Below are positions 10,046-28,514 of a DNA stretch of 32,000 nucleotides, piece by piece. The notes beneath the pieces are model-generated. The model ran no database searches, had not been told where the DNA came from, and worked only from the letters and a program-made list of their open reading frames with translations. The stretch is from Methanothermobacter thermautotrophicus str. Delta H (lineage in GTDB: Archaea > Methanobacteriota > Methanobacteria > Methanobacteriales > Methanothermobacteraceae). How positions within the stretch are numbered: the stretch's first letter is position 1; every line of letters begins with the position of its first letter. The DNA lies in contig NC_000916.1 in the NCBI RefSeq assembly GCF_000008645.1, forward strand, positions 420,001 to 452,000. The letters run 5' to 3'. The position numbers and the translations under genes are program-made.

Positions 10046-10952
10046 AGATAGCAGAGGTCACATGGGGGATGAGGAGCGCCATGTTGATGATGTCCTCACG
10101 GTTGTGCTCAACCAGGGGGACCAGGGGCCCTGGGCTGCCGGTTGAGATGTAGGTCCTGTAGTAGTCCGGGACGTGTGAGCCGGGTATGTCAAGGTCCCTC
10201 TCAGCACCCAGGATATGCCTCTCCACCGTTGACAGTTTACAGTCAGGGAGTGTGTGCCCCCAGAGTCGCCTTGAAATATGGTATAGGTCCACGTGACAGT
10301 TTTCAAGACTGTTTTCAAGGCCATGGACGGCTGACCTCCTCCTTATGTAGGGGATGTCGAAGCTTGCACCGTTGAAGGTTACGATGATGGAGTCTGGTGG
10401 TATGTGGTGGTAGATCTCAAGGACAGCCCCCTCCATTTCAGGTGCCGGTGCCAGGCGCTGCCTCACATTCATCACCCCATCCTCAATCCATGCCATGCCT
10501 GTGAGTATGACCGGCGCCCCTCCAAGGCCCAGGGTCTCGATGTCCAGGAAGGTGAATCTCTCCTCATCCACAAGACCAAGCGCACCCAGAACCCTGTAAT
10601 CAGAGGATGAACAGTTCAGGTAGCCCCTGATCCCAGGGAAGTCCCCTGAATCAATGAGATCAAGGATGCGTGCTGCCTCCTCCCGGTAGATCTCATGTTC
10701 CAGGAGGTCCTCGATGGTATGGTAGCCCTCAGATTTCAGCATCCTTTCGGTTATGGAACCAACACCCCTCAGCAGTTTCAGATCAGAGAGGATGTGGGGT
10801 CTGACATCAGACCTCCTCAGCTTCACCCTCCTCTCATGGGATATCTCCAGGGCCTCAGAGCCTGCAGCGGTCACCCTGGACGCATCAAAGGTCTCCTCGA
10901 GTGATGCGCCATCATATTCTGTTACGAGATCCCATTTGAGTTTTTCAAGCAC
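10041..10952 (-). CDS. mrfB: RNase H-like/DnaQ-fold exonuclease with N-terminal HhH (YprB/MrfB-like)
   Basis: The motifs FLDIETLGL (Exo I), NGASFDIPYI (Exo II) and EHNREDIINM (Exo III-like), plus LRGVGSITERML (HhH), are present. The gene sits immediately downstream of the YprA/MrfA-like helicase with a 41-nt gap, as in the B. subtilis yprA-yprB arrangement. Confidence 0.7.
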   Translation of the reverse strand: MLEKLKWDLVTEYDGASLEETFDASRVTAAGSEALEISHERRVKLRRSDVRPHILSDLKLLRGVGSITERMLKSEGYHTIEDLLEHEIYREEAARILDLIDSGDFPGIRGYLNCSSSDYRVLGALGLVDEERFTFLDIETLGLGGAPVILTGMAWIEDGVMNVRQRLAPAPEMEGAVLEIYHHIPPDSIIVTFNGASFDIPYIRRRSAVHGLENSLENCHVDLYHISRRLWGHTLPDCKLSTVERHILGAERDLDIPGSHVPDYYRTYISTGSPGPLVPLVEHNREDIINMALLIPHVTSAIC

Positions 10953-10993
10953 ACTATACCTCCAGCATCATCCTTCAATTTTTCAGCCCCGGA

Positions 10994-13492: not shown

Positions 13493-13695
13493 TTGTTGTC
13501 CAGGGTGCAGAATATCCGTTTATTTAATCTCCAGACTGGCGAAACAGATTCCGGGCGTTACACTTTTCCTTCTGATGAACATAATATGATACAGTGTGTA
13601 TTAGGGTGTGTGACTTTAAGGAGATATGTGGCTGTGGCCATCATCATGGCCGGCCTGGTCCTGCAGCGGCCTATCTCTCAGGGGGTGGAGCCCCT

Positions 13696-14150
13696 GTGGA
13701 GGGTCGTGTGGCCCTGGTGGTCTTCGCGGACTAGGACCCGCATGAATTTGAAACTCAGCGCTGAGGTCACCGTGATAGGGGCGGGAGACCTCCCATCTGG
13801 CTACGATATCCGCATTGAGGATGTGAAGCCATCCTATATCAGGGGCCACGATGCAGTTATCTTCACAGGTGGAAGCGGCCTCTACAGGAGGGCGAAGTCC
13901 GGCCGGGTGGACCGGGACCTGGAGATGGCGGCCGATACAGCAGAATCAGCCAGCAGGAGTGATAGGATCATAGGCGCCATATGCGCTGCCCCGGCCATAC
14001 CAGCCATGGCCGGAATCATGAGGGGGTCAGAATGCTACCATATACCCCGGCCTTGAGGGTGTCCTCTCAGAGAACGGCGCCAGATACGTGAAGGGTGACG
14101 TCGTGGTTTCAGGGAGGATTGTAACGGTACCCGCCCCTGAATCCGCCTAA
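13696..14150 (+). pseudogene. DJ-1/PfpI-family protein, decayed (in-frame TAG plus at least 2 frameshifts)
   Basis: A GTG at 13696 follows a GGTGGAG SD and reads VEGRVALVVFAD-TAG(13732-13734)-DPHEFE. A second frame (ORF 13493..14056) continues with SAEVTVIGAG...HDAVIFTGGSG...RIIGAICAAPAIPAMAG, including the nucleophile-elbow Cys. A third frame from 14031 reads NATIYPGLEGVLSENGARYVKGDVVVSGRIVTVPAPESA* (stop 14148-14150). Confidence 0.65.
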
Positions 14151-14201
14151 ACTGAGGGATACCCTCAGGGAGATGATCAGGAAGAGATGAGGTGTGCATT
14201 C

Positions 14202-14708
14202 ATGAAGAAGTATATTTTAATTGTGATGCTTGCCCTGATGGTTGCGGGCTGCGTCTCTGAGGATGGTAACTACACATACAATGAGGGTGTCCAGGACAGC
14301 AATGTGGACAATCCTGTTAATGATTCATGGACCAGCGACTCCCAGGATAAGGTTAACGATACTGCTGAGAAAAAATCCAGTTATGAGGCATCAGGCAGCT
14401 GTTACCATGTGGTTGACGGTGACACCATAGACGTTGAGGGCGTCGGGAGGATACGCCTGGTAGGGGTTAACACCCCTGAACGTGGACAGCCAGGCTACAG
14501 GGAGGCGAAGGACTTCGTGAAGTCCATGTGCCTTGGAAGAACAGTCCAGCTGGACATCGATGATGCTAAAAGACACGACAGGTATGGGAGGGTCCTTGCA
14601 GTTGTCTACGTCGACGGTGTCAACCTCAACAGGGAGCTTCTCAGGCGCGGCTATGCCGAGGTAATGTACATACCACCCTCTGAGTTTAACCCATATGGGT
14701 GGACATAA
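14202..14708 (+). CDS. Secreted/lipoprotein staphylococcal-nuclease (SNase/thermonuclease) homologue
   Basis: MKKYILIVMLALMVAGC is a signal peptide with a lipobox-like Cys. The SNase core reads VVDGDTIDV...IRLVGVNTPE...EAKDFV...DRYGRVLAVVYVDGVNLNRELLRRGYA. A GAGGTG SD lies 8 nt upstream of ATG 14202, which I prefer over 14187. Confidence 0.8.
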   Translation: MKKYILIVMLALMVAGCVSEDGNYTYNEGVQDSNVDNPVNDSWTSDSQDKVNDTAEKKSSYEASGSCYHVVDGDTIDVEGVGRIRLVGVNTPERGQPGYREAKDFVKSMCLGRTVQLDIDDAKRHDRYGRVLAVVYVDGVNLNRELLRRGYAEVMYIPPSEFNPYGWT

Positions 14709-14773: not shown

Positions 14774-16015
14774 ATGTCAGATGTTGTGTTGATTGACATA
14801 TTTGCAGGTGCGGGGGGGCTTACTGAAGGTTTCCTTCGGAGTGATTATACATTCGTTTCACATATTGAGATGGACAGGGATGCGATTCAGACACTGGAGA
14901 CAAGGGGACTCTATCATCACCTGCAGAGCGATGGTGACCCCGAGGATTACACCGAATACGTTAATGGTGAGATAGGACGTGAAGAACTATTCAGAAGATA
15001 TCCTGACTTTGACAGTGAACTGTACATGAACCTTGAACTCACAGAGGAAAACGTGGACAGGGTCATAGAGACCATCAGGTCAAAGATGAATGATATGGGG
15101 ACAGTTTCTGTTGATGGCATAATAGGTGGGCCTCCATGTCAGGCGTACTCATATGCTGGCAGATCCCGGAAGAACATGGAAAAGGACAGGAGAAACTACC
15201 TCTACCTCCTGTACATTAAATTCCTGAAAGAATTCCAGCCGGAATTCTTTGTATTCGAGAACGTCCCCGGGATGAAGTCAGCGCAAAGGGGCCACATACT
15301 ATCTGATTTCCAGAGGAAGGTAACAGACCTGGAATATAAACTTGACTTTGAAGTGCGTGATGCATATAACTTCGGGGTCCCTCAGAGGAGAAGGAGGATC
15401 ATAGTCATCGGCCACCGCATGGAAGATAAAAGGATACAGTTTGATGAGGAGAGGTATGCCGGTACAGTGAATGACATCCTATGTGATCTGCCCGCCCTTG
15501 AACCCGGCCAGGGCACAGACGGGCCCCAGGAATATAGATCCAGACCATCACGCCTCCTGAATGAGATGGGTATAAGGACAGAGAATGATATTCTCCGACA
15601 TCACCAGGCGCGAAGACACAACCCGCGGGACCGCGAAATTTACAGGAGAACAATTGACGCATGGAACTCAGAGAGGAGAAGATTAAAATATACAGAACTT
15701 CCACCGGAACTCAGGACACACAGGAACACCAGGAGCTTCCTTGACCGTTACAAGGTGGTTGCAGGGGACCTCCCCTATTCCCATACCATTGTCGCGCATA
15801 TATCAAAGGATGGACACTACTACATCCACCCCGACAGAGAACAGGCCCGTTCTCTGACCGTAAGGGAAGCTGCAAGGATCCAGTCCTTCCCGGATAACTA
15901 CATATTTGAAGGATCCATGACCTCAAAGTACCGGCAGATAGGAAACGCCGTGCCTCCACTAATGTCTGAGAAGATTGCCCGCAAACTTTATGAAATCTAC
16001 AGGGGGGACCTCTGA
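14774..16015 (+). CDS. drmMII: DNA (cytosine-5)-methyltransferase (Dcm family; DrmMII-like position)
   Basis: All core motifs are present: DIFAGAGGLTEGF (I), GGPPCQAYS (IV, 15125-15151), ENVPGM (VI), QRRRRIIVIG (VIII), RSLTVREAARIQSFPDNY (IX) and QIGNAVPP (X). A variable target-recognition region of roughly 120-130 aa lies between VIII and IX. Confidence 0.92.
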   Translation: MSDVVLIDIFAGAGGLTEGFLRSDYTFVSHIEMDRDAIQTLETRGLYHHLQSDGDPEDYTEYVNGEIGREELFRRYPDFDSELYMNLELTEENVDRVIETIRSKMNDMGTVSVDGIIGGPPCQAYSYAGRSRKNMEKDRRNYLYLLYIKFLKEFQPEFFVFENVPGMKSAQRGHILSDFQRKVTDLEYKLDFEVRDAYNFGVPQRRRRIIVIGHRMEDKRIQFDEERYAGTVNDILCDLPALEPGQGTDGPQEYRSRPSRLLNEMGIRTENDILRHHQARRHNPRDREIYRRTIDAWNSERRRLKYTELPPELRTHRNTRSFLDRYKVVAGDLPYSHTIVAHISKDGHYYIHPDREQARSLTVREAARIQSFPDNYIFEGSMTSKYRQIGNAVPPLMSEKIARKLYEIYRGDL

Positions 16016-16137
16016 TTTCTGAAAAGGATCTGCTGCTTGATATTCATACCAGAATCTGCGAATGGGGAAAAAAGAATTTAAGGAAATTTCCCTGGCGCGA
16101 AAGAAGAGATGACTATGGAATTCTGCTGGCTGAAATA

Positions 16138-16665
16138 ATGCTTCACAGAACACGCGCAGAACAGGTGCTTGAAATTTATGAAAACTTTGTTGAAAAATTT
16201 CCTGATTTTAAATCGGTGTGTGAAGCGGGACAGGAAACAATAGAAAAAGAAATGGAGTCCCTTGGTCTCAGATGGAGAGCCAGAAATCTCCATAAACTCG
16301 CATGTGAGATTGAAAGCAGACACGGGGGGGCTGTTCCAAAAAACAAAAATGATCTCCTTGAACTTCCAGGCATTGGGAACTACATTTCCTCGGCGTTTTT
16401 ATGTTTTTCCAAAAATATTCCAGAACCCCTTCTGGACACGAACACCGTCAGAATCATTGGTAGATTGTTTGATCTTGAGATCAGTGATTCATCCCGCAGA
16501 AAAAAGGATTTTGAAACAGTAATGAGGAAAATTCTTGAATTTGGTGACTGCAGACACCTTTCACTATCGATGATCGATTTCGGAGAGGCTGTGTGCAGAG
16601 CTAGCGATCCCCTCTGCCATGAATGTCCCCTGAAACTATCATGCAACTTTTACAGGAGATGTTAG
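16138..16665 (+). CDS. mig: HhH-GPD superfamily DNA glycosylase with [4Fe-4S] loop (EndoIII/MutY/Mig.Mth-like). Coordinates start at the first canonical start codon; the conserved frame is open from 15994.
   Basis: LLELPGIGNYISSAF is the HhH-GPD hairpin, LLDTNTVRIIGR matches vDtN..R with the catalytic Asp, and CRASDPLCHECPLKLSC is the Cx6Cx2Cx5C cluster. Upstream, in the same frame with no ATG/GTG/TTG, the sequence reads ..LISEKDLLLDIHTRICEWGKKNLRKFPWRERRDDYGILLAEIM-LHRTRAEQV. This is the conserved N-terminal helix region of this family. Confidence 0.85.
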   Translation: MLHRTRAEQVLEIYENFVEKFPDFKSVCEAGQETIEKEMESLGLRWRARNLHKLACEIESRHGGAVPKNKNDLLELPGIGNYISSAFLCFSKNIPEPLLDTNTVRIIGRLFDLEISDSSRRKKDFETVMRKILEFGDCRHLSLSMIDFGEAVCRASDPLCHECPLKLSCNFYRRC

Positions 16666-16666
16666 A

Positions 16667-19600
16667 ATGAGAAAAACAATGATTGAAGAGGTAATAAAGG
16701 AGGTGCTGGGACCACGAAGTGGCCCTGAGGAATCCATTAAAGGGGACCCCTACGATGAGTATATAACCGGTGTTATCATCCCCGCCGGATGGAGTCCCGC
16801 CATAGAAATGGGTGCTGCTGACCCCGATTCTGAAAATGTGAATACAGACATTGTTTCATCAGGAGAGGATGATGATTCTGATTATGAAAGCTCTGTATTA
16901 TCAGGACCATTCACACGGCCCAGATCATTTGGTATTTCATTCATGGCACCCGCCGGTGCAAAGGAAATGGATATCTGTGTCACGTGGGGTCGATACACCA
17001 GATCCGATGATGAGAAAATGTGGAAGAGAAAAGGCCATTTCTGCATCAAAAAATTTTCACTTGAGGAGGATAACACCCGTGAATGCATCTACCGGGAAGA
17101 TGATGGCAGCATAACGATCAATGTTATGATCAGGGAGGACGGAAACCGTAAAAACGTTAGGGTGATTCTTGTAAATGAACTTAAGGTCGCTCGAAGTGCT
17201 TACAGACCTGAAACAGCCTCCTGCATTTTTCAGCCATCCATTCGCATTAACGTTGAAGACCGTCCGGAAACTTCAGATGCCCCTGATGACTACAGAGATG
17301 AGATGAATTTCATTTACAGAAACAGAAAGATTGATGTGATGGGAATTCAATGCTCTGCAGTATCAAAATCATGTGAATACTCACATAACCTCAATGAGTC
17401 TATTTTATGGCCTGATGGTCTTAATCTGGCTGAAAAATTCCCTGAAATTGAAAATTTCAGAACTCCTGACTTCAGAACAGAATTTGTACCTCTCTATCCC
17501 AGTCCGATGCCATCCTTTGATGTGGAAGGGGTTGATGAACTTTCTGCAGAGAAACTTTCAGAGGCATGGAATTCCAGTTCAATTTCAGAGATAGTGAACC
17601 CCCTCATAGATGCATATGAAAGGTGGATAGAATGCAATAAAGGAATCCAGAAGTCAATGGATGGCAAAAATAAAAAATTTGCATCCGGTATAATCAAAAA
17701 ACAGGAAGAAGCGCTGAAAAGACTTAAAAATGGATTGGAAATCCTCATGGATAATGAGAAAGCAAGGCTCGCATTCTGTTTTGCAAACAGGGTCATATCA
17801 CTTCAGCATCAGTGGAGCCGGCAGGGTGATGATTTCCTCTGGAGACCATTCCAGCTCGCATTTTTTCTCATGAACATCGAACCCATATTCAATCCTGAAT
17901 CAGAATATCGTGATGTTCTGGATCTCCTCTGGATACCAACCGGGGGTGGGAAAACAGAGGCCTATCTTGCCATAATAGCATTTACGATGTCTCTTCGCCG
18001 TCTTAAAGGTTCCATCGGCTCAGAAAATATCCAGAGATGCTATGGAACAGCAGTTATATCAAGATACACCCTGCGCCTCCTCACCGTGCAGCAGTTCAGA
18101 AGGACCCTGAGAATGATAACAGCGGCGGAGTATCTGAGAGTTTTCATATGCGACAGCGGTCTCAGGGGATGGAGACCCTCCAACTGTGATATAAAAGAGG
18201 ACTGGTTATATGGTTCTGTGAGGTTCTCCGCTGGCCTATGGGTAGGTGGCGCCGTGTCTCCACTTCATCTGAGAATAAATAAAGGGGCCATTGACATCAT
18301 GACCTCCTCCGGGGATGGTGGGAATGAAAGTGAGCCGGCCCAGGTCATCAGGTGCCCCGCATGCAATTCATGGTTGAGTCTGCCGGATTCTTCAGAGAGC
18401 TCCCTGCCTGCCCATGATAACACAATAATCACCGTGGTCCAGAAAAAGAAGACAGACCTCAGCTTTGAGCCTTCAGAACTCAAAAAAATGTTTCCTGAAA
18501 TCAGAGAAATCAGAACTTGCAGGGACAACCTCAGGGAGAACCATGAAACACTCATCATAAAATTTGATGAAAGAGATATGGACATCCCCCGGATATCAGA
18601 GATCATGAAAGAACTTGAGAATCACTTTGAGTTCTCATCACTGAGCTGGAGAAGACCCGGCTACTTTGGAAGCTCCTTTGATAAAGGGAGGAGGAAAAAG
18701 AAATATTCAGACTTTGAAATATGGTGTCCCAATCCGGACTGTCCTCTGAATAAGGATGTTGACTGGGCGGAGGGTGTTCCCTCAGATGAGGAATCGGAGT
18801 TTCCCGATGGAAATGCCAGAAGAAAGTTTGAGAGTCCTTTTATAGAAAACAGAAGAATTCCTGTTCCTGCCTACACTGTTGATGAACAGGTATACTCAAG
18901 GTGCCCCACAGTTATAATAAGCACTGCTGATAAGATTGCGAGACTCTCCTTTGAGCCAAAGGCAGCAGCCATCTTCGGAAATGTTGATAAATTCAACATA
19001 TTTTATGGTTATCACAGGGATGGGCTATATCCCATAAACACGACAAAGAGTAGTGAAGCCCATGACACTGACGTGGAAGGGTTTCTGCCCCCTGAACTGA
19101 TAATACAGGACGAACTCCACCTCCTTGACGGTCCCCTCGGAAGCATCTTTGGAATCTATGAGGCATCCGTGGAATCTCTCATATGGCGTGGAGGGCTGAG
19201 ACCAAAATATCTTGCATCCACGGCAACGATAAACAACGCACATGATCAGGTCAGACTTCTCTTTGGAAGGGATCTGTTCCAGTTCCCGCCACACGGCCTT
19301 GAAATAGCAGACTCATTTTTTGTTAAGGAAGAGGATCCCGGTGATGCATGGGATGAACGGATTAGCGGAAGAATTTACATGGGAATCGCCGCACCCGGAA
19401 GAGGTCCGATAACTCCCCAGATAAGGCTATGGTCCCGTGTTCTCAAAACATCTGCGGAAAACACAGGCAACGAAGCCATCAGATATTACTGGACCGTTGT
19501 CGGATACTATAATTCCCTGAGGGAACTTGGAGGTGGGATTGCATTTTACAGGGAGGACGTTGTTGAGAGGTTAAAGGAGATTTCCGTGGATGATCCTCGT

Positions 19601-20374
19601 GATATAGATCCCGACCCGCTGGAACTTTCAAGCAGGATTGATTCAACTGCCCTGCCCCTTGTACTTGACAGAATAGAACGCGACGGAGAACAGCCGGGAG
19701 TCCCGGCATATGATGCCATTTTCACAACATCAATGTTCGGTACCGGTGTGGATGTGCCTCACCTTTCACTCATGATTGTCAGCGGTCAGCCAAAGACAAC
19801 AGGATCCTACATTCAGGCCACAGGGAGGATCGGGCGAAGACGGGGAGGTCTTGTCCTGACATTTCTGAATGCTTCAAGACCCCGGGACATGAACCACTAT
19901 GAAATGTTCATGAGGTATCATGCGAGAATTCATGAAAGCGTTGAATCTGTTTCAGTTTCACCCTATTCCGATGGGGCATTAAATAGAGCCCTTGGACCAG
20001 CGACCGTCGCATTTCTCAGAAACATGCCACTGGCCCGTGTTAACTGGACAGAAGAAGATGGTAAGGTCATATTATCCGGAGAATCCTCTGAAGATATTCA
20101 TTATCTGCAGGAATCCCTCACAAACCGGCTTGATAAAATATTTAACAGAAAAGAGGATGTGGAAATAATTGAAAATTTCCTTGAAGAGTGCATCAAAAAA
20201 TGGAGATCTGTTGCGGAAGAAGTCAATGAACTCCGATTTTCAGAGTACATAACCAGACAACACAACGTGGTCCTTGGCACTCCATCGCATGAATATAAAA
20301 ACCTCAAGACAGTTTTCAGAAATGCTCCAAATTCACTGAGGGATATTGAGGAAACAACAGGTTTCAGGGTGTAA
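16667..20374 (+). CDS. drmA: DISARM DrmA-like large SF2 helicase (1235 aa)
   Basis: Helicase motifs are WIPTGGGKTEAYL (motif I, 17936-17959), IIQDELHLL (DExH, 19109-19120), STAT, and FGTGVDVPHLSLMIVSGQPKTTGSYIQATGRIGRR (V/VI). There is a long N-terminal region and split zinc-ribbon-like pairs CPAC (~18350) and CPNPDC (~18725). AGGAGA lies 8 nt upstream, 1 nt separates it from the glycosylase stop, and a DUF1998 gene follows immediately. Confidence 0.8.
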   Translation: MRKTMIEEVIKEVLGPRSGPEESIKGDPYDEYITGVIIPAGWSPAIEMGAADPDSENVNTDIVSSGEDDDSDYESSVLSGPFTRPRSFGISFMAPAGAKEMDICVTWGRYTRSDDEKMWKRKGHFCIKKFSLEEDNTRECIYREDDGSITINVMIREDGNRKNVRVILVNELKVARSAYRPETASCIFQPSIRINVEDRPETSDAPDDYRDEMNFIYRNRKIDVMGIQCSAVSKSCEYSHNLNESILWPDGLNLAEKFPEIENFRTPDFRTEFVPLYPSPMPSFDVEGVDELSAEKLSEAWNSSSISEIVNPLIDAYERWIECNKGIQKSMDGKNKKFASGIIKKQEEALKRLKNGLEILMDNEKARLAFCFANRVISLQHQWSRQGDDFLWRPFQLAFFLMNIEPIFNPESEYRDVLDLLWIPTGGGKTEAYLAIIAFTMSLRRLKGSIGSENIQRCYGTAVISRYTLRLLTVQQFRRTLRMITAAEYLRVFICDSGLRGWRPSNCDIKEDWLYGSVRFSAGLWVGGAVSPLHLRINKGAIDIMTSSGDGGNESEPAQVIRCPACNSWLSLPDSSESSLPAHDNTIITVVQKKKTDLSFEPSELKKMFPEIREIRTCRDNLRENHETLIIKFDERDMDIPRISEIMKELENHFEFSSLSWRRPGYFGSSFDKGRRKKKYSDFEIWCPNPDCPLNKDVDWAEGVPSDEESEFPDGNARRKFESPFIENRRIPVPAYTVDEQVYSRCPTVIISTADKIARLSFEPKAAAIFGNVDKFNIFYGYHRDGLYPINTTKSSEAHDTDVEGFLPPELIIQDELHLLDGPLGSIFGIYEASVESLIWRGGLRPKYLASTATINNAHDQVRLLFGRDLFQFPPHGLEIADSFFVKEEDPGDAWDERISGRIYMGIAAPGRGPITPQIRLWSRVLKTSAENTGNEAIRYYWTVVGYYNSLRELGGGIAFYREDVVERLKEISVDDPRDIDPDPLELSSRIDSTALPLVLDRIERDGEQPGVPAYDAIFTTSMFGTGVDVPHLSLMIVSGQPKTTGSYIQATGRIGRRRGGLVLTFLNASRPRDMNHYEMFMRYHARIHESVESVSVSPYSDGALNRALGPATVAFLRNMPLARVNWTEEDGKVILSGESSEDIHYLQESLTNRLDKIFNRKEDVEIIENFLEECIKKWRSVAEEVNELRFSEYITRQHNVVLGTPSHEYKNLKTVFRNAPNSLRDIEETTGFRV

Positions 20375-20376
20375 AT

Positions 20377-22113
20377 ATGATGAATAACGTGCAGCATCTT
20401 AGAAGATCCCAGTTCATATTCACCTATGGACCTGGAGCCATACTGGAGGGAAAGAACGGGCCCGTGATGATCCCTTCACTCAACGACGGCCTGGGAAACT
20501 ATTTTGGAATAGAATATCTTGAGAAGTTTGAGATTAAGGATAGCAGGCTTTCAGAGTTTCTCCGGAAAAATAAAGAGATTGATGGAACCATACGGCTATT
20601 TTCACTGCCCACCAATGCCGCCCTCTCCCTTGATGAAAACCGTCACATCTACAATACATGGCGGTTTCCCCGCTGGAAAATATGCTATGGAAGAACAGAA
20701 GGGGGACACCAGAATCCCGTCCTTTATTATGAACGTGAAGGGAAAGGCTGCCCCATATGCGGGTCAAGGAATGCCTCAGCCACCCGATTTGTGGCTGCGT
20801 GTCCTGACGGACATCTTGATGATCTGCCATGGAAATATCTCGTTCACAGTAAAGAAACCGGGTGCAATCCAGAATACTTTCACTGGAAAATTGAGGGACC
20901 ATCAATTGCGGATATAATAATTAAATGTCCGGAATGTGGACAATCATCTTCCATGAGATATATTTACAGAAAAAAATTCCGCTGCACAGGCAGACTTCCT
21001 GAAAGATCAGGGCTCCGTTCAAAGGAATCATGTGAACTTGAAATGAAGATTCTTCAGAGACAGTCAACCTCCCTCAGAATACCCGTAACACTGACCCTTC
21101 TGAAAATTCCCTATAAAACCAAACTGGATGAAATACTGGAGAACGATCCAGAATTCAGGGGTAACCTGCGCGGTATTATAAACCATGCAAATAAAGAAAA
21201 TCTGCTTTCAGACGTTAAGCAGAACAAAAGAAAATATTATGACACCGTTAAAGGGAGTATTGAGGACATGGGTTACAGAAGATTCTGTGAACATGTAATG
21301 GGATTCAATAGCAGGATGATAGCAGATCCCCTTGGAGATGAATTCCGGGCCCTCAGAGAAATGCGAACATCTGAAACACTATCAGTGGGAGAGCCTGTGA
21401 AATTTTCTGTTGATTCTCAGATTACCCTCAAAATTGTTCCTGTTGAAAAATTGAAGCTTACAACTGCTCAGATTGGATACTACAGGAGCCCTTATCTTAA
21501 AAAGGACGAAAATTCAGAGATAATTCCGTCAAATATTGTGAGTACAGGTGAAAGGGAAGCAATTTCCGAGTCATGGTGGTATCCTGCGTTTGAGAGTATG
21601 GGAGAGGGTCTGTTCATAACAGCGGATAGAATAGCCCCGGAATCTTCATCCTTAAATGCGCTGCAGGAGTGGGATGAAAGAAAATTGATTCATGACGAAA
21701 TTCTGAGACAGAACACACCTGTGAGTCCAGAATTTGTGTGGTGGCATACACTTTCACATTCCATTATACAGGCCCTCTCGTTATATGCAGGCTATTCATC
21801 ACCCTCAATAAGAGAAAGAATTTACACAGACTCCGGAGGCGCCGGTGGCATTCTCCTTTATTCATCATCGATTGGAGATGATTGCAGTATGGGAGGTCTC
21901 TCTGGATGTGCTTCAGAATCAAAATTTAAGGAGATATGGAAAATAGCAATGAATAATATTGAATTCTGCTCCAACGATCCGATATGTCATCAGAATCGGA
22001 TTTCAGATGGAAATTACAACGGATCCGCATGCCACCGCTGCCTGATGCTATCAGAGACATCATGTGAACACAGGAACAGGTGGCTGGATAGGCATGCTGT
22101 TCTTGGAGATTGA
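20377..22113 (+). CDS. drmB: DISARM DrmB-like DUF1998 protein (578 aa)
   Basis: The N-terminus RRSQFIFTYGPGAILEG is typical of DUF1998 proteins. Internal cysteine pairs are CPICG...CPDGH and CPECG. The C-terminal DUF1998 cluster is CSNDPICHQ...GSACHRCLMLSETSCEHRNRWLDR (21967-22071). It starts 2 nt after the DrmA-like stop. Confidence 0.8.
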   Translation: MMNNVQHLRRSQFIFTYGPGAILEGKNGPVMIPSLNDGLGNYFGIEYLEKFEIKDSRLSEFLRKNKEIDGTIRLFSLPTNAALSLDENRHIYNTWRFPRWKICYGRTEGGHQNPVLYYEREGKGCPICGSRNASATRFVAACPDGHLDDLPWKYLVHSKETGCNPEYFHWKIEGPSIADIIIKCPECGQSSSMRYIYRKKFRCTGRLPERSGLRSKESCELEMKILQRQSTSLRIPVTLTLLKIPYKTKLDEILENDPEFRGNLRGIINHANKENLLSDVKQNKRKYYDTVKGSIEDMGYRRFCEHVMGFNSRMIADPLGDEFRALREMRTSETLSVGEPVKFSVDSQITLKIVPVEKLKLTTAQIGYYRSPYLKKDENSEIIPSNIVSTGEREAISESWWYPAFESMGEGLFITADRIAPESSSLNALQEWDERKLIHDEILRQNTPVSPEFVWWHTLSHSIIQALSLYAGYSSPSIRERIYTDSGGAGGILLYSSSIGDDCSMGGLSGCASESKFKEIWKIAMNNIEFCSNDPICHQNRISDGNYNGSACHRCLMLSETSCEHRNRWLDRHAVLGD

Positions 22114-22146
22114 GGATCTGAACTGATCAGAAATGGTGGTGAATAG

Positions 22147-25062
22147 ATGGAGCCTGCATATTACTATCATGATTATCCCGTGTGTCCAAACTGCAAAGAA
22201 CCTGTGATCACAGGAGCTCCCCTGCTGATTGAGGATGATGGAACATTTAGGTGTTCCTCCTGCGACGCCTTTTTCAGTCCTGCGGTGCATCTTCCGGAAA
22301 ATGAAGGGGTACATGAATTCCTGACGAAAAATCTGAAAGAACCTCCCAGTGAGGAACTGCCCCTTATCTGGCCCATAAAAAATAACGTGATTGAAAAATC
22401 ATATCTCAGCTGGCTTCCCAATATCAGTGAAGGAAAGTACCTGATAACATGGCCATGGAGGAATATCAGGTTCCTCCCAGTTCTAATCTGCGAGTGCCTC
22501 AGGGTTAAAGGAGATGCCAAGATCGTTGTGATCGGTGAGATCAATACCGGTGAAAGTAAAAATGAGCTGGGTTTTCCTGACCCCTTTTCAGCGCTCGGAA
22601 GCCTCCAATACATTGAAGATATGTCTAAGATGGATTCAGGTGATCTCAGAAATCTTAGAAGATTATTAAAAATAGACAGAAAAAATGTATTCAAAAAGAA
22701 AAAAAAGATCCATTACAGAATAAAGGATTCAAAGAACAGACATACGACAGAAATATCAGTATACAGACCAGAAATGACCATTAGAAAATGCATAAACCGC
22801 ATTTTAAAGTACTATAAGAATTTATATGGAATGAATGCTGTAAGGAGTATAACCCAGAAGGATGGGAAGGGTGATAAAAGAATTAAAAAACTGAAGGATG
22901 AAGGAATAATCGCCATAAGCATTGAAGAAAGGGAAGAATGGACGGGCAAAAAACTCAATTTTCCGGTATCTGACCTTTTTCATGTAATACTGAATTATGA
23001 TAACTTAACACGTTTTAAAGATCACTTTAAGTATGATTGCATAACAGATGTCAGGGATACAGATACTTCAGACAGTTCCGTGGTTTTTATCTCACAGACC
23101 CTGGAACCAGAAAAACTCTTTGGCATCGTTGAAGAATGCAACCCAGATATTGTATTTTTCACAGATTCAGATTATTTCGTCAATGAAAGGCTTTTCAACG
23201 GTAGGAGGTGGCAAAAATTCAGAGAATTTCTTCGTTCAACAGAGTGTACTGTTCTGATGTTTTCACTCAGACCCGACAGCAGACACCTGTACAGAGACCT
23301 TCAGGACAGCTTCACATGGCACACCTGGGATTGCATACCCATTCTTGACATACTGACCGGAGATGAAGATCATTCAAGACCATCCCCATTTTCATCATCA
23401 TTCAGTGAAATATCTGTCCCGGGGATTAATGCTGAGATAGAGTACATCCATCTCGAGGAGATTGATAGAATAGAAGAAATCTCCGAAAAGATCCTGAAAA
23501 TAGATAACGGTAAAAATGTGCGCCGTTATCTAAAATATCTTCCTCAGACACCTCTCAAGCTCCGCGGCCCACACAATTATTCAAATGGTGGCTGGGTCAT
23601 TGATAACATTCTGAATCAGATCCTGGATACACCAATCTTTGACGAGGTGAAAAACACATTCGAAGAGGTTTATTCAATTTCATCGGGCCCCCAGAGAAAC
23701 CCCATACTGAACTCCGTGAAAGAAATCATTGAAGCGGAACTTTCAGAGGATGACAGAAAATCTATATTCATAGCTTTAAGATCATCGCGGGAAACAAAGA
23801 GCCTGAAAAAAACTTTTGAAATTGATGAAGAGAATCCTGATGTGCTTGATGCTGTTGATATATGCACCTGGAATGATCTCCCCACCCACCATGGGGAAGG
23901 TCCCTCAGTGGTAATAGCAACTTCATATCCACCCATCGGATACTCTCTGAATGATACAGATATAGATAAATTTTACTTCATAGGAGGATCAACAGCCATT
24001 GAAAAAATAAAATCAGTAGTTAACAACAGAATCACAGAGCAGATTACAAAACCTCTTCACATTCCATCAAGAAAAGAAAGAGCGCCCGAACTTCTCTTTG
24101 AGATTACAGGAAAAATTCATGTTCCTGAAACCGTTAAAGAAGATATCCTAGAGTTTGAAAGATCCATTGAATCAGGATCATATTCAAAGATATCGAATTC
24201 GTATGGGAAAACCTATAAAAAGCGTGCGAGAACAATAAGAGCAGGCACTGAATGTGTGCTTGTGATCAATGAAATGAATTGTGGAATGTTCATACCATCC
24301 CACAGGCTTCTTTTCTTTAAGGATGAAACTGTCGACAGGATCGAACACATCAGAGCCGGTGATAAACCTGAAAATCTTCAGAACAGGACTCTTTTACTGG
24401 ATGAACATGGATTCTATACATCATTCAAAGTCCTTTTCACCAGATTCATGATAGAAATTGCCCCAAACCTGAAAATAAAACGTTCCTACTACACCTGGAA
24501 CGGCTTCAAAGAACTTGTGGATGACTCATATGAATGGTTAAGGAACATCCGAAATGCCATGAAGAAGCTTATGGATGCCCGTGACTGGAATGAAAACAGG
24601 GCAAAGGATTACCTATCAGAATATCTTGTTAAATATGATCTCAACGCCAGAAACCCCGAGTATATAAGAGATCACTGGCTGTCGGATCCAGATATCATAC
24701 TGACGTCGGAGGGTCATGTTCCAGTTTTTGATGTCGAGCACCCCAAGGGAATTTCAGATGTTGAAAAAATATACAGGGCTCTGGATGAACTATTTCCTGA
24801 AATGTGTCTTGATGATGAAAAAGCAAGAAGATCATACATTGCATCACGGACTCTTCAGAAACTGAGAAGAAAATTTTTAACTGATGAAAAGCAATCGCTG
24901 CATCAACGGTACCACAGATTCCATGACGAGCTCTGGAAAGAAATAAATTACGTCCTTAAACGTTCCGATAAATTTAAAATAAAGGATGCCAGAATTGTTA
25001 AGGTCAAGATAGATTCGCCATCCATGAAAATACTTCAAGATTATAAGAGGTATATAACATGA
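22147..25062 (+). CDS. Large uncharacterised protein (971 aa) with N-terminal zinc ribbon; last gene of the DISARM-like operon
   Basis: The intact 971-aa ORF has a GGTGGTGA SD 5 nt upstream and starts 33 nt after the DrmB-like stop. CPNC-x20-CSSC forms a zinc ribbon at residues ~13-40. Two alpha/beta-looking regions follow (KIVVIGEI, VVFISQT, DIVFFTDSDY, TVLMFS; later SIFIALRS, VVIATSYP, FYFIGGS), with no Walker A and no HKD motif. The C-terminus is helical and K/R/E-rich. I recognise no family. Confidence 0.75.
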   Translation: MEPAYYYHDYPVCPNCKEPVITGAPLLIEDDGTFRCSSCDAFFSPAVHLPENEGVHEFLTKNLKEPPSEELPLIWPIKNNVIEKSYLSWLPNISEGKYLITWPWRNIRFLPVLICECLRVKGDAKIVVIGEINTGESKNELGFPDPFSALGSLQYIEDMSKMDSGDLRNLRRLLKIDRKNVFKKKKKIHYRIKDSKNRHTTEISVYRPEMTIRKCINRILKYYKNLYGMNAVRSITQKDGKGDKRIKKLKDEGIIAISIEEREEWTGKKLNFPVSDLFHVILNYDNLTRFKDHFKYDCITDVRDTDTSDSSVVFISQTLEPEKLFGIVEECNPDIVFFTDSDYFVNERLFNGRRWQKFREFLRSTECTVLMFSLRPDSRHLYRDLQDSFTWHTWDCIPILDILTGDEDHSRPSPFSSSFSEISVPGINAEIEYIHLEEIDRIEEISEKILKIDNGKNVRRYLKYLPQTPLKLRGPHNYSNGGWVIDNILNQILDTPIFDEVKNTFEEVYSISSGPQRNPILNSVKEIIEAELSEDDRKSIFIALRSSRETKSLKKTFEIDEENPDVLDAVDICTWNDLPTHHGEGPSVVIATSYPPIGYSLNDTDIDKFYFIGGSTAIEKIKSVVNNRITEQITKPLHIPSRKERAPELLFEITGKIHVPETVKEDILEFERSIESGSYSKISNSYGKTYKKRARTIRAGTECVLVINEMNCGMFIPSHRLLFFKDETVDRIEHIRAGDKPENLQNRTLLLDEHGFYTSFKVLFTRFMIEIAPNLKIKRSYYTWNGFKELVDDSYEWLRNIRNAMKKLMDARDWNENRAKDYLSEYLVKYDLNARNPEYIRDHWLSDPDIILTSEGHVPVFDVEHPKGISDVEKIYRALDELFPEMCLDDEKARRSYIASRTLQKLRRKFLTDEKQSLHQRYHRFHDELWKEINYVLKRSDKFKIKDARIVKVKIDSPSMKILQDYKRYIT

Positions 25063-25072
25063 GAGTACGAAG

Positions 25073-26824
25073 TCACTTCCACCCCTCAATGATCCTCTGT
25101 TTCAGTATGCGGAACTCCTCATCCTCAAGCAACCTTCCATTCTTTACTATATGCCCCCTGAGGGTCCTCAGAATGAATGATACCACAGCATGACCTATCA
25201 TGTCACCCTTAAGACCATATGGGGGCATGGAGAGGAATTTCATCTCATCCACCGGATCAAAGTCGCCCCTTGAAAATTTTTCAACTGTCACATCCACCAT
25301 GGTCTTAACTGGGTGGTAGACATCTGGAAGGAGGTTAAGGTTCTCATCAACTATCCAGTCACCCCCGGGGCCCCTGAGGATGTGGGCGATGAACCATAAT
25401 AATCCACTCCCTGTTTTCTTTTTGAACTCTTCAAGATTCTCAGAGAAGAATATTTCAAAGACCTTCGGGTAATTTCCAGTCTTCCAGAGGTTTCTGTTTC
25501 CACGTATCACAGGGAGGTTCTCAGGGCCAGAGTGGAAGATCCTCCTTGAAAGCTCACTGTTTATCAGCTCGCTGAGACCATAAAGCCTATCCCCCCTCCC
25601 TGATTCACCATTGAGGTACCACTGGAAACCTGATGCCATCAGATCCCCGACCCACGCCGACACCATCCTCCCTGCAGCATCACTGTGCTCAGGGTCATCT
25701 GAACTCAGCGCAAGGGTCATGTGGTCGAGGAGGATCTCATAGTCCTCAGCAGCCATTGAGGCGTCAGGGAATACCATGAGAACGTTATCAGGTCCTTGGA
25801 GGGTCGGGGCGGGCATCCCCTCATGGGTTCTAAGTATGAGGGCCACAAGGATATCTGATCCTCTGCCATGGAAGTCATCAGCTGAGACCTCAGGATTCAG
25901 TGTGGAAGCATACCCTATTCGGAGCTCCCTGAGTGAGGAACCCCTCAGGAACCCCTCAAGGTCATCCCTTCTTTCACCAAAAAGTTTATCAGGTTCATTT
26001 ATTATTAATTCTCCCAGTCTATCCCTGAATTCCAGATCTTCAGAGCCCAAGTGAGGCCTTTCATCGATCTTAACCCTGAATGAGGAGATATAGCTGTCAA
26101 GTATCTCATCCGAGGATGTATCATCAAGATGGATGACACCGTCGTCCAGGGTGATTGATGGGGACTCCTGCAGTTTAACTGCGATTGATTCCATGGTGGT
26201 CCCGAAAAGTCTGAGGGGGCCCCCCGGGCATTCATCACCGTAAAGGTATTCCAGTCCAATCTCCCGGGAACCGATATCCTCTGCAAGCCTGTAGAGGGAG
26301 TAGGCCACCACATGGTGGTCCAGGTCATCCAGATGTATCCTTTTAACCAATGAGCTCCGTCCCCTCTTCCTCATGGATACGATGGCACCCAGACGCGAGT
26401 TATCAAACATGTTGATGAGGGCTGAGACAGGATTTTCCACTGTGGAGTCCTTAATATCACCGAGATCCGGCCTTATGGCCTCCATGATCCCCTTCTTATC
26501 GAGGTACTCATCGAATCCCACATTGTCACAGAAGAGATTAACGATGGGGGATCCATGGTACATGCTGACCCAGAGGATCTGCCATGCTGCCACGGGTTCC
26601 ATGAAGTAGAGGTCCCTGATCCTGCCAAAGAGTGGGGTTACTTTTTCCTTAACAATGAGGCCTGCATCGGCCAGCCAGGACCCGACGGCCTTCACCTGTA
26701 CCGGACCCAGATTGTTCCTTTCATGCCATCTTTCCTCATGGGTGAAGATTAATGGCATCCATTCATCCCTGAGGCCAAAGGTGGAGTACCTGTCAATTCC
26801 ATTTAACTTTCTGGCTCTCATCAT
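25073..26824 (-). CDS. Uncharacterised protein (583 aa), convergent with the DISARM-like operon and divergent from the McrB-like gene
   Basis: The ORF is intact, with no NTPase or nuclease motif recognised by eye. The N-terminal ~200 aa (STFGLRDEWM...LGPVQVKAVGSWLADAGLIV...WQILWVSMYH...) loosely resemble the DUF4007 pattern. That resemblance is unverified. Confidence 0.7.
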   Translation of the reverse strand: MMRARKLNGIDRYSTFGLRDEWMPLIFTHEERWHERNNLGPVQVKAVGSWLADAGLIVKEKVTPLFGRIRDLYFMEPVAAWQILWVSMYHGSPIVNLFCDNVGFDEYLDKKGIMEAIRPDLGDIKDSTVENPVSALINMFDNSRLGAIVSMRKRGRSSLVKRIHLDDLDHHVVAYSLYRLAEDIGSREIGLEYLYGDECPGGPLRLFGTTMESIAVKLQESPSITLDDGVIHLDDTSSDEILDSYISSFRVKIDERPHLGSEDLEFRDRLGELIINEPDKLFGERRDDLEGFLRGSSLRELRIGYASTLNPEVSADDFHGRGSDILVALILRTHEGMPAPTLQGPDNVLMVFPDASMAAEDYEILLDHMTLALSSDDPEHSDAAGRMVSAWVGDLMASGFQWYLNGESGRGDRLYGLSELINSELSRRIFHSGPENLPVIRGNRNLWKTGNYPKVFEIFFSENLEEFKKKTGSGLLWFIAHILRGPGGDWIVDENLNLLPDVYHPVKTMVDVTVEKFSRGDFDPVDEMKFLSMPPYGLKGDMIGHAVVSFILRTLRGHIVKNGRLLEDEEFRILKQRIIEGWK

Positions 26825-28505: not shown

Positions 28506-28514
28506 TGATCACCG

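What the first reader, a model, noticed from the sequence alone, without database searches (positions are those of the whole stretch)
14774..25062. Non-canonical DISARM-like operon: m5C MTase, Mig-type glycosylase, DrmA, DrmB and a 971-aa orphan, with no PLD DrmC
Five co-directional genes are packed with an overlap and gaps of 1, 2 and 33 nt, consistent with a single operon. The DExH helicase (PTGGGKTE / DELH / QATGRIGRR) is followed directly by a separate DUF1998 protein, and a C5-cytosine methyltransferase lies in the same operon. That combination is the DISARM class-2 signature (Ofir et al. 2018). The expected PLD-nuclease DrmC is absent, since I found no HxKx4D motif in any ORF of the island. 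No recognisable DrmE is present either. A HhH-GPD glycosylase is inserted between the MTase and DrmA, and a 971-aa zinc-ribbon protein occupies the effector position. To my knowledge DISARM has only been characterised in bacteria, so a thermophilic archaeal variant with different accessory genes may work differently.
Basis: partly seen in the sequence, partly recalled or inferred. Interest (0 to 1): 0.85.

Follow-up and report, generated by a model that had tools for sequence, protein, structure and literature searches.

The report
Archaeal DISARM defence operon variant
This is a real five-gene anti-virus operon of the known DISARM type in the archaeon Methanothermobacter thermautotrophicus Delta H; it belongs to a mostly archaeal sub-type that carries its own DNA-repair enzyme and a very divergent version of the "DrmE" protein, and this lineage has lost the dispensable nuclease DrmC.

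Summary
The window is M. thermautotrophicus Delta H. Five co-directional genes lie at the stated coordinates. They are an m5C methyltransferase (DrmMII), a Mig-type HhH-GPD glycosylase, DrmA, DrmB and a 971-aa protein. DrmA and DrmB pass NCBI's curated DISARM cut-offs, and RefSeq already names this protein DrmA.

No PLD gene or remnant of one is in the window.

The 971-aa protein is not an orphan. Its family has 176 representatives and follows DrmA-DrmB in all 48 related loci that hold the junction. In 39 of those 48 a ~150-aa PLD DrmC sits between DrmB and it. DrmC is missing only in Methanothermobacter and a few other lineages.

No curated DrmE model hits the 971-aa protein. Profile-profile comparison links its C-terminal ~55% to the DrmE C-terminal domain (81-90% probability; reversed controls 0.1%). 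Independently predicted secondary structures are collinear. Its predicted fold is SF2-helicase-like, without a Walker A motif.

The glycosylase travels with the methyltransferase. Vsr replaces it in a deltaproteobacterial relative, so it is most likely the T:G repair partner of 5mC methylation.

Verdict: a new variant of class-2 DISARM, of moderate interest. All functions are inferred from sequence, context and models.

The parts
14774..16015 (+). DrmMII, a C5-cytosine DNA methyltransferase (413 aa), presumed to mark self DNA
   Evidence: Pfam PF00145, E=1.1e-60. PADLOC DrmMII PDLC02649, 536.8 bits over the full length. dN/dS is 0.08-0.10. RefSeq WP_010876134 'DNA cytosine methyltransferase'.
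16001..16015 (+). MTase/glycosylase junction: a Shine-Dalgarno-like AGGGGGG run, a 4-nt spacer, then CTG 16012 overlapping the MTase stop TGA 16013-16015. This is the proposed non-canonical start, translationally coupled to the MTase.
   Evidence: Sequence read. The junction is conserved in three genomes. The G-run length varies between strains (G5, G6, G7). The start codon itself is inferred, not shown.
16012..16665 (+). Mig-type HhH-GPD/[4Fe-4S] mismatch glycosylase (217 aa from CTG 16012; databases call only 16138-16665, 175 aa)
   Evidence: Pfam HhH-GPD. PADLOC PDLC03398, E=1.7e-27, aligned from profile position 44, so the ATG-started product is truncated. PDB 1KEA (Mig.MthI) E=1.6e-37, residues 13-217 against 15-219 of 221; MutY catalytic domains score about equally. 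The C-X6-C-X2-C-X5-C cluster loop and an LPGIG hairpin are visible in the translation. The N-terminal extension has dN/dS 0.09-0.15.
16667..20374 (+). DrmA, the DISARM SF2/YprA-family helicase (1235 aa, 'long' form)
   Evidence: NCBIfam NF038326 DISARM_DrmAL, 1417.7 bits against a cut-off of 999. PADLOC PDLC02571, 1493 bits over the full length. Walker A PTGGGKTE, DELH and QATGRIGRR are present. RefSeq name is 'DISARM system helicase DrmA'.
20377..22113 (+). DrmB, the DUF1998/MZB zinc-binding partner of DrmA (578 aa)
   Evidence: NCBIfam NF038324 DrmB_fam, 438.8 bits against a cut-off of 240. PADLOC PDLC02583, 567.9 bits. Pfam MZB at residues 459-556.
22147..25062 (+). 971-aa DrmE-like protein ('X971'). 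It has an N-terminal CPxC...CxxC zinc ribbon and two RecA-like lobes without a Walker A motif. A beta-barrel plus helical C-terminal region, together with the second lobe, is collinear with DrmE_C.
   Evidence: No Pfam, PADLOC or NCBIfam hit. The family has 176 representatives. It is always next to DrmB or DrmC. hhalign against DrmE_C gives 80.7% probability (E=1.3e-5) and 90.4% (E=1.4e-6), with reversed controls at 0.1%. Secondary-structure agreement is 61% against 28-45% when shifted. The AF2 model has pLDDT 73. Foldseek returns RIG-I/Hef/SNF2-like helicases at E of 1e-5 to 4e-6. No G-x4-GK[ST] motif occurs in any of the 155 family members checked. dN/dS is 0.18-0.39.

Best explanation
The locus is a class-2-type DISARM anti-virus and anti-plasmid system. 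It belongs to a distinct, mostly archaeal clade with the architecture [m5C MTase + T:G repair enzyme] - DrmA(long) - DrmB - (short PLD DrmC) - DrmE-like 971-aa protein.

Proposed working, with each step marked as shown, inferred or known elsewhere:
1. DrmMII methylates a short motif on host DNA and so marks self. This is inferred from family membership; the motif is unknown.
2. 5mC deaminates to T, quickly at this thermophile's growth temperature. The Mig-type glycosylase is translationally coupled to the MTase through an overlapping CUG start. It removes T from the resulting T:G mismatches and keeps the methylated sites from mutating away. This is inferred from homology to Mig.MthI and from its replacement by Vsr in a bacterial sister locus.
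3. The DrmA-DrmB helicase complex loads on ssDNA 5' ends of unmethylated invader DNA and blocks its replication. This was shown for bacterial DISARM and is inferred here.
4. The 971-aa protein is the counterpart of DrmE, which is essential in Bacillus class 2. It is predicted to be an ATPase-dead SF2-helicase-like scaffold with a zinc ribbon. It probably binds DNA and/or DrmAB rather than hydrolysing ATP. This step is inferred from models and motifs.
5. DrmC was deleted in the Methanothermobacter lineage. Because DrmC is dispensable in both tested bacterial DISARM classes, the system is expected to remain functional.
For: Identity of the core genes:
- Curated cut-offs are passed for DrmA and DrmB, and the MTase has a strong DrmMII hit.

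Conserved architecture:
- It is found in about 50 loci, some redundant. Hosts are Methanobacterium, Methanobacteriaceae, Bathyarchaeota, Thermoplasmata, Heimdallarchaeota, Syntrophaceae and Desulfuromonas.
- Counting the window, DrmC is present at 39 of 49 DrmB-X971 junctions.
- It is absent in the four Methanothermobacter sequences (the window, L007, L008, L025), in Thermoplasmata L019, in a gut-metagenome group (L046-48, L057) and in L049.

Selection:
- All five genes are under purifying selection, with dN/dS 0.08-0.39.

Link between X971 and DrmE:
- hhalign gives 81% and 90% probability with two different X971 sub-alignments. Reversed controls give 0.1%, E about 0.6.
- The global alignment maps the whole of DrmE_C onto X971 residues ~400-971.
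- Independently predicted secondary structures agree at 61%, against 28-45% for shifted registers.

Mig as a repair partner:
- There is a full-length match to Mig.MthI.
- The MTase-Mig module stays together even when it is inverted or when the MTase is of a different type (L002, L005/6, L016, L021).
- Vsr (E=4.4e-24 to PDB 1CW0) takes Mig's place in Syntrophaceae L039/L020.
- Vsr also lies next to Bacillota DrmE-type DISARM.
- The literature holds that Mig enzymes evolved to counter 5mC deamination (PMC1636421).

Literature on DISARM function:
- drmC is dispensable, drmA/B/E are essential and loss of drmMII is deleterious in class 2 (10.1101/2021.12.28.474362).
- DrmAB is activated by 5' ssDNA overhangs (PMC9142583).
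Against: - No curated DrmE model (NF038316, PF24957, PADLOC) hits X971 or any of 41 relatives.
- HMM-to-sequence searches between the two families are not significant.
- The N-terminal ~45% of X971 shows no similarity to the DrmE N-terminal protein.
- Gene order differs: DrmE lies upstream of DrmA in Bacillota, while X971 lies downstream of DrmC here.
- The fold assignment rests on a model built from only 8 sequences (pTM 0.44), and the Foldseek TM-scores are low (0.13-0.31).
- The DrmE_C model alone gives no significant PDB match.
- The glycosylase scores as well against MutY catalytic domains as against Mig. T:G specificity is therefore not established.
- Nothing here shows methylation, expression or defence activity in Delta H.
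- In Methanothermobacter sp. DP the DrmA gene is split, so the system can decay in this genus.
Confidence: 0.75

Rival explanations
1. The 971-aa protein is not a DrmE homologue. It is an unrelated component that defines a separate DISARM class, for example a sensor or effector that works with or instead of the PLD nuclease.
For: - All curated DrmE models miss it.
- The N-terminal half, including a zinc ribbon that DrmE_N lacks, shows no similarity to DrmE_N.
- Its position in the operon is different.
- The hhalign probability is 81-90%, not above 95%.
Against: - The profile-profile signal was reproduced with two sub-alignments and vanishes in reversed controls.
- The order of secondary-structure elements is collinear over ~440 aligned residues.
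- DrmE and X971 are mutually exclusive partners of DrmMII-DrmA-DrmB operons in every locus inspected.
Confidence: 0.2
2. The glycosylase is part of the restriction mechanism. It would make abasic sites or nicks in invader DNA that give DrmAB its ssDNA entry point, compensating for the missing DrmC.
For: - Its stop is 1 nt from the DrmA start, inside the operon.
- PADLOC's best match is a REBASE-derived 'type II nicking endonuclease' model.
- DrmAB needs ssDNA 5' ends.
Against: - Mig is also present in the 39 loci that keep DrmC, so it does not replace DrmC.
- It segregates with the MTase, not with DrmAB, when the modules are inverted.
- It is exchangeable with Vsr, a dedicated T:G repair nuclease.
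- The Mig family is known as a repair enzyme.
Confidence: 0.08
3. The Delta H operon is an inactive, decaying remnant: the nuclease is lost, the glycosylase start codon is lost, and only the methyltransferase is still useful.
For: - DrmC is absent.
- The glycosylase has no canonical start codon.
- DrmA is split in the related strain sp. DP.
Against: - All five reading frames are intact in Delta H.
- dN/dS is 0.08-0.39 for every gene and for the 42-codon N-terminal extension.
- DrmC is dispensable in tested DISARM systems.
- The same DrmC-less arrangement is kept in four divergent Methanothermobacter sequences.
Confidence: 0.07

Closest known systems
Class 2 DISARM of Bacillus paralicheniformis 9945a (drmE-drmA-drmB-drmC-drmMII; Ofir et al. 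2018, as summarised in 10.1101/2021.12.28.474362)
   Same: Both have a C5 MTase of the DrmMII type, a DrmA helicase with a separate DUF1998 DrmB, and a large extra protein of unknown function whose C-terminal domain is remotely homologous.
   Different: - The gene order differs: here the MTase comes first and the DrmE-like gene last.
- DrmC is absent here.
- A repair glycosylase sits inside the operon.
- DrmA is the 'long' form (NF038326).
- X971 fails the curated DrmE models and has an N-terminal zinc ribbon.
- The host is an archaeon.
Bacillota split-DrmE DISARM loci (L010, L058-L061: DrmE_N ~326 aa + DrmE_C ~507 aa, then DrmA, then DrmB)
   Same: - No DrmC follows DrmB.
- An m5C MTase is nearby.
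- A T:G repair enzyme (Vsr) lies next door in L010 and L060.
   Different: - DrmE is split and lies upstream of DrmA.
- Type II restriction enzyme genes (HaeIII-, NgoFVII- and AspBHI-like) accompany the MTase.
- The repair enzyme is Vsr rather than Mig.
Class 1 DISARM (Serratia sp. SCBI; DrmD-DrmMI-DrmA-DrmB-DrmC)
   Same: The DrmA/DrmB core is shared. The accessory protein has a helicase fold: DrmD is an SNF2 helicase, and X971 is predicted to be SF2/SNF2-like.
   Different: - Class 1 uses an N6-adenine MTase.
- DrmD is an active ATPase family, whereas X971 lacks a Walker A motif.
- No sequence similarity between X971 and DrmD was detected.
Mig.MthI / M.MthTI of Methanothermobacter plasmid pFV1 (Horst & Fritz 1996, cited in PMC1636421; structure 1KEA)
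   Same: Both are ~220-aa HhH-GPD/[4Fe-4S] glycosylases encoded next to an m5C MTase in a thermophilic methanogen.
   Different: Here the pair is embedded in a DISARM operon rather than a type II R-M system. The gene uses a non-canonical overlapping start. Activity is untested.
Vsr/Dcm very-short-patch repair of E. coli
   Same: The logic is the same: a T:G mismatch repair enzyme is co-inherited with a C5 MTase, often with overlapping genes. Vsr substitutes for Mig in sister locus L039.
   Different: Vsr is an endonuclease of an unrelated fold; Mig is a glycosylase.

Membership tests
DISARM (core) | DrmA: SF2/YprA-family helicase of the DrmA clade | tested here: met
   NF038326, 1417.7 bits against a cut-off of 999. 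PADLOC PDLC02571, 1493 bits. Helicase motifs are intact.
DISARM (core) | DrmB: DUF1998/MZB protein encoded as a separate gene directly after DrmA | tested here: met
   NF038324, 438.8 bits against a cut-off of 240. The gap to DrmA is 2 nt.
DISARM (core) | DrmC: PLD-family nuclease (HxKx4D) after DrmB | tested here: not met
   No motif, no Pfam or PADLOC hit and no tblastn remnant anywhere in the 32-kb window. It is present in 39 of 48 sister loci. PADLOC's type II definition requires DrmC, so automated tools would not call this a complete system.
DISARM class 2 | DrmMII: C5-cytosine methyltransferase in the operon | tested here: met
   PF00145, E=1.1e-60. PADLOC DrmMII PDLC02649, 536.8 bits.
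DISARM class 2 | DrmE family protein (NF038316 / PF24957) | tested here: inconclusive
   No HMM hit for X971 or for 41 relatives. Profile-profile probability to DrmE_C is 81-90%, with clean reversed controls and collinear predicted secondary structure. The N-terminal half is not similar.
DISARM | Protects against phage or virus and plasmid DNA, with methylation marking self | not testable with these tools
   This needs methylome mapping and challenge experiments. It is known only for the bacterial systems.
Mig-type T:G mismatch glycosylase (Mig.MthI) | HhH-GPD fold with a C-X6-C-X2-C-X5-C iron-sulfur loop, ~220 aa, no MutY C-terminal domain | tested here: met
   Full-length alignment to 1KEA, E=1.6e-37. 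The cysteine spacing and the 217-aa length were read from the translation.
Mig-type T:G mismatch glycosylase (Mig.MthI) | Genetic linkage to an m5C methyltransferase | tested here: met
   It overlaps the MTase stop codon here. It is adjacent to an MTase in at least 20 related loci, in either orientation.
Mig-type T:G mismatch glycosylase (Mig.MthI) | Excises T (and U) opposite G | not testable with these tools
   Sequence scores against MutY catalytic domains are equally good. The TIGR01084 mutY score of 168.5 is below its cut-off of 286.5.
SF2 helicases | Two RecA-like lobes with Walker A/B and an arginine finger, giving an active ATPase (applied to X971) | tested here: not met
   Fold-level matches only (Foldseek E of 1e-5 to 4e-6). 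No Walker A motif occurs in any of 155 family members. The position is an invariant 'ITWPW'. X971 therefore looks like a helicase but should not be filed as one.

The most novel reading that the evidence does not exclude
DrmE and the 971-aa family are catalytically dead descendants of an SF2/SNF2-type helicase. On this reading class 2 DISARM carries an inactivated counterpart of the class 1 SNF2 helicase DrmD. In the DrmC-less archaeal systems, the operon-encoded glycosylase would do double duty: it repairs host T:G mismatches and also creates the nicks or ssDNA ends on invader DNA that switch DrmAB on.
Probability: 0.1. Interest if true: 0.7.

Novelty: new variant of a known kind. Interest (0 to 1): 0.4.

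Why it matters
DrmE is essential for class-2 DISARM, yet it has no known fold or function. This work adds a second, very divergent branch of the family: 176 representatives, mostly from archaea and anaerobes. It also provides a predicted helicase-like, ATPase-dead architecture. Together these give structural biologists conserved residues and domain boundaries to test.

The locus also shows that T:G repair enzymes (Mig or Vsr) are recurrent built-in accessories of 5mC-based DISARM. Recurrent natural loss of DrmC agrees with its experimental dispensability.

Defence-finding tools that require DrmC and a DrmE HMM hit, as PADLOC's type II definition does, will under-call this sub-type.

Finally, M. 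thermautotrophicus Delta H is a cultivated model methanogen. An archaeal DISARM could therefore in principle be tested in its native host.

Tried and rejected
X971 against curated and sequence-level searches:
- Pfam, PADLOC and NCBIfam scans of X971, of 10 distant relatives and of 41 family members found no DrmE, DrmC or DrmD hit. Only zinc-ribbon noise appeared.
- A profile search of the X971 family against PDB sequences returned only zinc fingers.
- HMM-to-sequence searches between the X971 and DrmE_C sets were not significant.
- The word-indexed homologue search with the alignment added no members beyond the first eight. The exhaustive search was needed.

Searching for a usable DrmE:
- The 801-aa protein in the DrmE position of a Lactiplantibacillus plasmid matched neither DrmE_C, DrmE_N nor X971, so it was dropped as a bridge.
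- The DrmE N-terminal protein against the X971 N-terminal half showed no signal, even with a 6-sequence profile.

Structure:
- The DrmE_C model against the PDB gave nothing significant.

Neighbours and mobility:
- The staphylococcal-nuclease gene upstream (14187-14708) was considered as a substitute nuclease. It was rejected because it has a lipoprotein-like signal peptide and is syntenic only within Methanothermobacter.
- The DUF4007/BrxP-like gene downstream was considered as a sixth component. It is likewise found only in Methanothermobacter.
- No relatives were found on viral contigs.
- No tRNA genes or flanking att-like repeats delimit the island.
- A PLD fusion inside X971 relatives, suggested by one weak DpdK hit, was not borne out by motif search.

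Literature:
- No paper in the held library links DISARM with a glycosylase or mentions MTH495-499.
- The Ofir 2018 and Horst & Fritz 1996 papers were not available to read. Statements about them come from papers that cite them.

Full report
**1. Source and observation**

The 971-aa product is 100% identical to a protein of Methanothermobacter thermautotrophicus str. Delta H. Exact look-ups give GenBank AAB85001-AAB85006 for the six consecutive genes.

- 14774-16015
- 16138-16665, or 16012-16665 with the start discussed in section 3
- 16667-20374
- 20377-22113
- 22147-25062

All are on the + strand, with gaps of 1, 2 and 33 nt. G+C falls to 0.39-0.44 across 16-25 kb, against 0.55-0.58 to the left. 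That is compatible with horizontal acquisition.

**2. Identity of the four recognisable genes**

- **MTase.** The first gene is a C5-cytosine methyltransferase. It hits PF00145 at 1.1e-60 and the PADLOC DrmMII model at 536.8 bits over its full length.
- **DrmA.** It scores 1417.7 bits on NCBIfam NF038326 'DISARM system helicase DrmA' (cut-off 999). It scores 1493 bits on a PADLOC DrmA model end to end.
- **DrmB.** It scores 438.8 bits on NF038324 (cut-off 240).
- **Existing annotation.** RefSeq already names the helicase 'DISARM system helicase DrmA'.

**3. The glycosylase and its start**

From its first ATG the gene gives 175 aa. That product aligns only from position 44 of a 221-position PADLOC profile.

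The frame is open for 48 more codons, and none of them is ATG, GTG or TTG. The 42 codons from CTG 16012 behave as coding sequence:
- They are conserved as protein in Methanothermobacter sp. DP and KEPCO 2.
- Their dN/dS is 0.09-0.15, indistinguishable from the core of the gene.
- They complete a full-length match to Mig.MthI (1KEA; residues 13-217 against 15-219 of 221; E=1.6e-37).

CTG 16012 overlaps the MTase stop (cTGA). A purine run, AGGGGGG, ends 4 nt upstream of it. I read this as a translationally coupled, non-canonical start. This is an inference. ATT 16015 is an alternative start.

The G-run differs between strains (G5, G6, G7). In one metagenomic contig the G5 version puts an upstream ATG in frame.

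The protein has the C-X6-C-X2-C-X5-C iron-sulfur loop and lacks a MutY C-terminal domain. MutY catalytic domains score as well as Mig does. The T:G specificity is therefore inferred from context, not shown.

**4. The 971-aa protein ('X971')**

*Family size.* Pfam, PADLOC and NCBIfam give nothing, even at E of 10 or below. The word-indexed search finds only eight relatives. The exhaustive profile search finds 176 representatives, of which 133 have E of 1e-30 or below.

*Genomic context.* Context is decisive. Forty-nine loci, counting the window and with some redundancy, hold the junction upstream of the X971 gene. In every one the gene directly follows DrmA-DrmB. In 39 of them a ~150-aa PLD protein with a canonical HxKx4D...GSxN motif lies between DrmB and X971.

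Named hosts are Methanobacterium, Methanobacteriaceae, Bathyarchaeota, two Thermoplasmata, a Heimdallarchaeon, a Syntrophaceae bacterium and Desulfuromonas.

DrmC is missing in:
- four Methanothermobacter sequences (the window, L007, L008, L025)
- Thermoplasmata L019
- a gut-metagenome group (L046-48, L057)
- L049

This points to several independent losses.

*Is X971 a DrmE?* I recovered genuine DrmE material from a Bacillus plasmid. There DrmE is split into a 326-aa and a 507-aa protein. The 507-aa part hits NF038316 (E=3e-19), and its relatives carry PF24957 DrmE_C.

The comparison gave these results:
- hhalign of a 41-sequence X971 profile against a 15-sequence DrmE_C profile gives 80.7% probability, E=1.3e-5.
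- Reversing one side drops this to 0.1%, E about 0.6.
- The global mode aligns the whole of DrmE_C to X971 from about residue 400 to the end.
- A second profile made only of the 11 most divergent X971 relatives gives 90.4%, E=1.4e-6, over 367 columns. Its reversed control is again 0.1%.
- AlphaFold models were made independently for X971 (pLDDT 73) and DrmE_C (pLDDT 81). Their secondary structures agree at 61% of 441 aligned residues, against 28-45% for shifted registers. The order of elements is the same: strand, helical bundle, four-stranded alpha/beta unit, five-stranded barrel, long helices, terminal hairpin.
- The N-terminal ~45% of X971 (zinc ribbon plus an alpha/beta lobe with a beta-rich insertion) shows no similarity to the DrmE N-terminal protein, even with a six-sequence profile.

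I conclude, at roughly 75-80%, that X971 is a very divergent DrmE counterpart. It does not meet the curated family definitions.

*Fold.* Foldseek places the X971 model among SF2 helicases:
- RIG-I, MDA5, LGP2 and Hef in the PDB (E about 1e-5, probability up to 1.0)
- SNF2/DEAD-like helicases in BFVD (E down to 3.6e-6)

TM-scores are low (0.13-0.31) and the model's pTM is 0.44. None of the 155 family members checked has a Walker A motif. The corresponding strand-loop is an almost invariant 'ITWPW'. The best reading is a helicase-shaped, ATPase-dead protein with an N-terminal zinc ribbon.

**5. Why the glycosylase is there**

- The MTase-Mig pair behaves as one module. It sits upstream on the same strand, upstream on the opposite strand, or downstream on the opposite strand.
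- It stays paired when the MTase belongs to a different sub-type, at 21-31% identity.
- In the Syntrophaceae version the slot holds a Vsr endonuclease (E=4.4e-24 to E. coli Vsr) instead of Mig.
- Vsr genes also flank Bacillota DrmE-type DISARM.
- Mig enzymes are regarded as having evolved to counter 5-methylcytosine deamination (PMC1636421).

The simplest reading is mutation avoidance at the methylated self-marks, not a role in restriction.

**6. DrmC**

DrmC is dispensable in both experimentally studied DISARM classes. It does not co-purify with DrmAB (10.1101/2021.12.28.474362; PMC9142583).

Seven Bacillota DrmE-type loci that I inspected also show no PLD gene after DrmB. For three of these the evidence is PLSDB's incomplete gene table.

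Loss of DrmC in Methanothermobacter is thus unsurprising. All five genes remain under purifying selection, with dN/dS 0.08-0.39.

PADLOC's type II definition requires DrmC and DrmE. Such loci would therefore be missed or labelled incomplete.

**7. What is known, and novelty**

- DISARM has been characterised experimentally only in bacteria.
- It has been detected by sequence analysis in archaea, for example in Freyarchaeia, whose DrmA groups with Euryarchaeota.
- A recent survey of YprA helicases notes 'many uncharacterized DISARM-like classes' and DISARM-like cassettes next to McrBC operons.
- I found no paper linking DISARM with a glycosylase or mentioning these Delta H genes.

The locus is therefore a new variant of a known kind, not a new kind. 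The modestly new elements are:
- the X971 branch of DrmE and its predicted dead-helicase fold
- the built-in Mig/Vsr repair companion
- recurrent DrmC loss
- the mis-annotated glycosylase start

Interest: 0.4.

**8. Limits**

All functional statements are inferences from homology, context and models. The following remain untested:
- the methylation motif
- expression of the operon
- the glycosylase specificity
- the start codon
- any defence phenotype

Noticed in passing
window 15994-16137 (junction 16001-16015): GenBank and RefSeq call the glycosylase as 175 aa from ATG 16138. The 42 codons upstream are conserved and under purifying selection, but they contain no ATG, GTG or TTG. The likely start is CUG 16012, overlapping the MTase stop, behind an AGGGGGG Shine-Dalgarno-like run. 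The G-run length differs between strains (G5, G6, G7), which changes the MTase C-terminus and which start codons are in frame.
   Followed up: yes
window 26865-30218; L016/L044 13-711; L027 9839-10492; L028 12071-12724: A McrBC-like pair lies next to the DISARM operon: an AAA_5 GTPase-like protein of 546 aa, plus a DUF2357/PD-(D/E)xK protein of 567 aa. McrC-like homologues also flank the DISARM cluster in Methanobacterium loci. This echoes a published remark that DISARM-like cassettes are often associated with McrBC operons.
   Followed up: partly
window 10041-13462 (- strand): A DEAD-box helicase with a fused MZB/DUF1998 domain (822 aa) lies just upstream of the DISARM operon. It is followed by an RNase-H-fold exonuclease (303 aa). 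This is a MrfA/MrfB (YprA/YprB)-like pair, and so a second YprA-family helicase in the same island.
   Followed up: no
window 5085-9189 (- strand): An 1157-aa helicase matches PADLOC candidate PDC-S37 (1362 bits) and Hhe. It is preceded by a separate 204-aa DUF4011 protein. This looks like a further defence gene, split or two-part.
   Followed up: no
window 25073-26824 (- strand): A 583-aa protein converges on the 971-aa gene with a 10-nt gap. UniRef names it DUF4007, and it has partial PADLOC BrxP and BrxC hits. It is syntenic only within Methanothermobacter, so it is probably not part of DISARM.
   Followed up: partly
L007 4504-8233 (Methanothermobacter sp. DP): DrmA is called as two proteins (586 + 632 aa) in this strain. 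This suggests a frameshift or early decay of the system in a close relative.
   Followed up: no
L039 744-1157 (- strand); L060 16063-16479; L010 2024-2440: Vsr very-short-patch repair endonuclease genes sit beside DISARM operons in a Syntrophaceae contig, where Vsr replaces Mig, and in two Bacillota DrmE-type loci.
   Followed up: yes
L058-L061, L010, L015: In Bacillota, DrmE is commonly split into a ~326-aa N-terminal protein and a ~507-aa C-terminal protein (PF24957), upstream of DrmA-DrmB. No DrmC follows. Type II restriction enzyme genes (HaeIII-, NgoFVII- and AspBHI-like) accompany the m5C MTase.
   Followed up: partly
window 2510-2548, 8940-8978, 14057-14095: Three copies of a 39-nt direct repeat (72-87% identity to the reference). 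The first lies in a frame-shifted P-type ATPase fragment (1102-2678). The third lies just after a disrupted DJ-1/PfpI-like ORF (13493-14056). All sit near boundaries between defence modules. Their origin is unexplained and may be chance or relics of rearrangement.
   Followed up: partly
window 9969-10045: A perfect 31-nt tandem direct repeat, with copies 46 nt apart, spans the junction between ORFs 9579-10022 and 10041-10952 on the minus strand.
   Followed up: no
window 14187-14708: A staphylococcal-nuclease-fold protein (173 aa) with a lipoprotein-like signal peptide ends 65 nt upstream of the MTase start. It is conserved in that position only in Methanothermobacter and is probably a secreted thermonuclease unrelated to DISARM.
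   Followed up: partly
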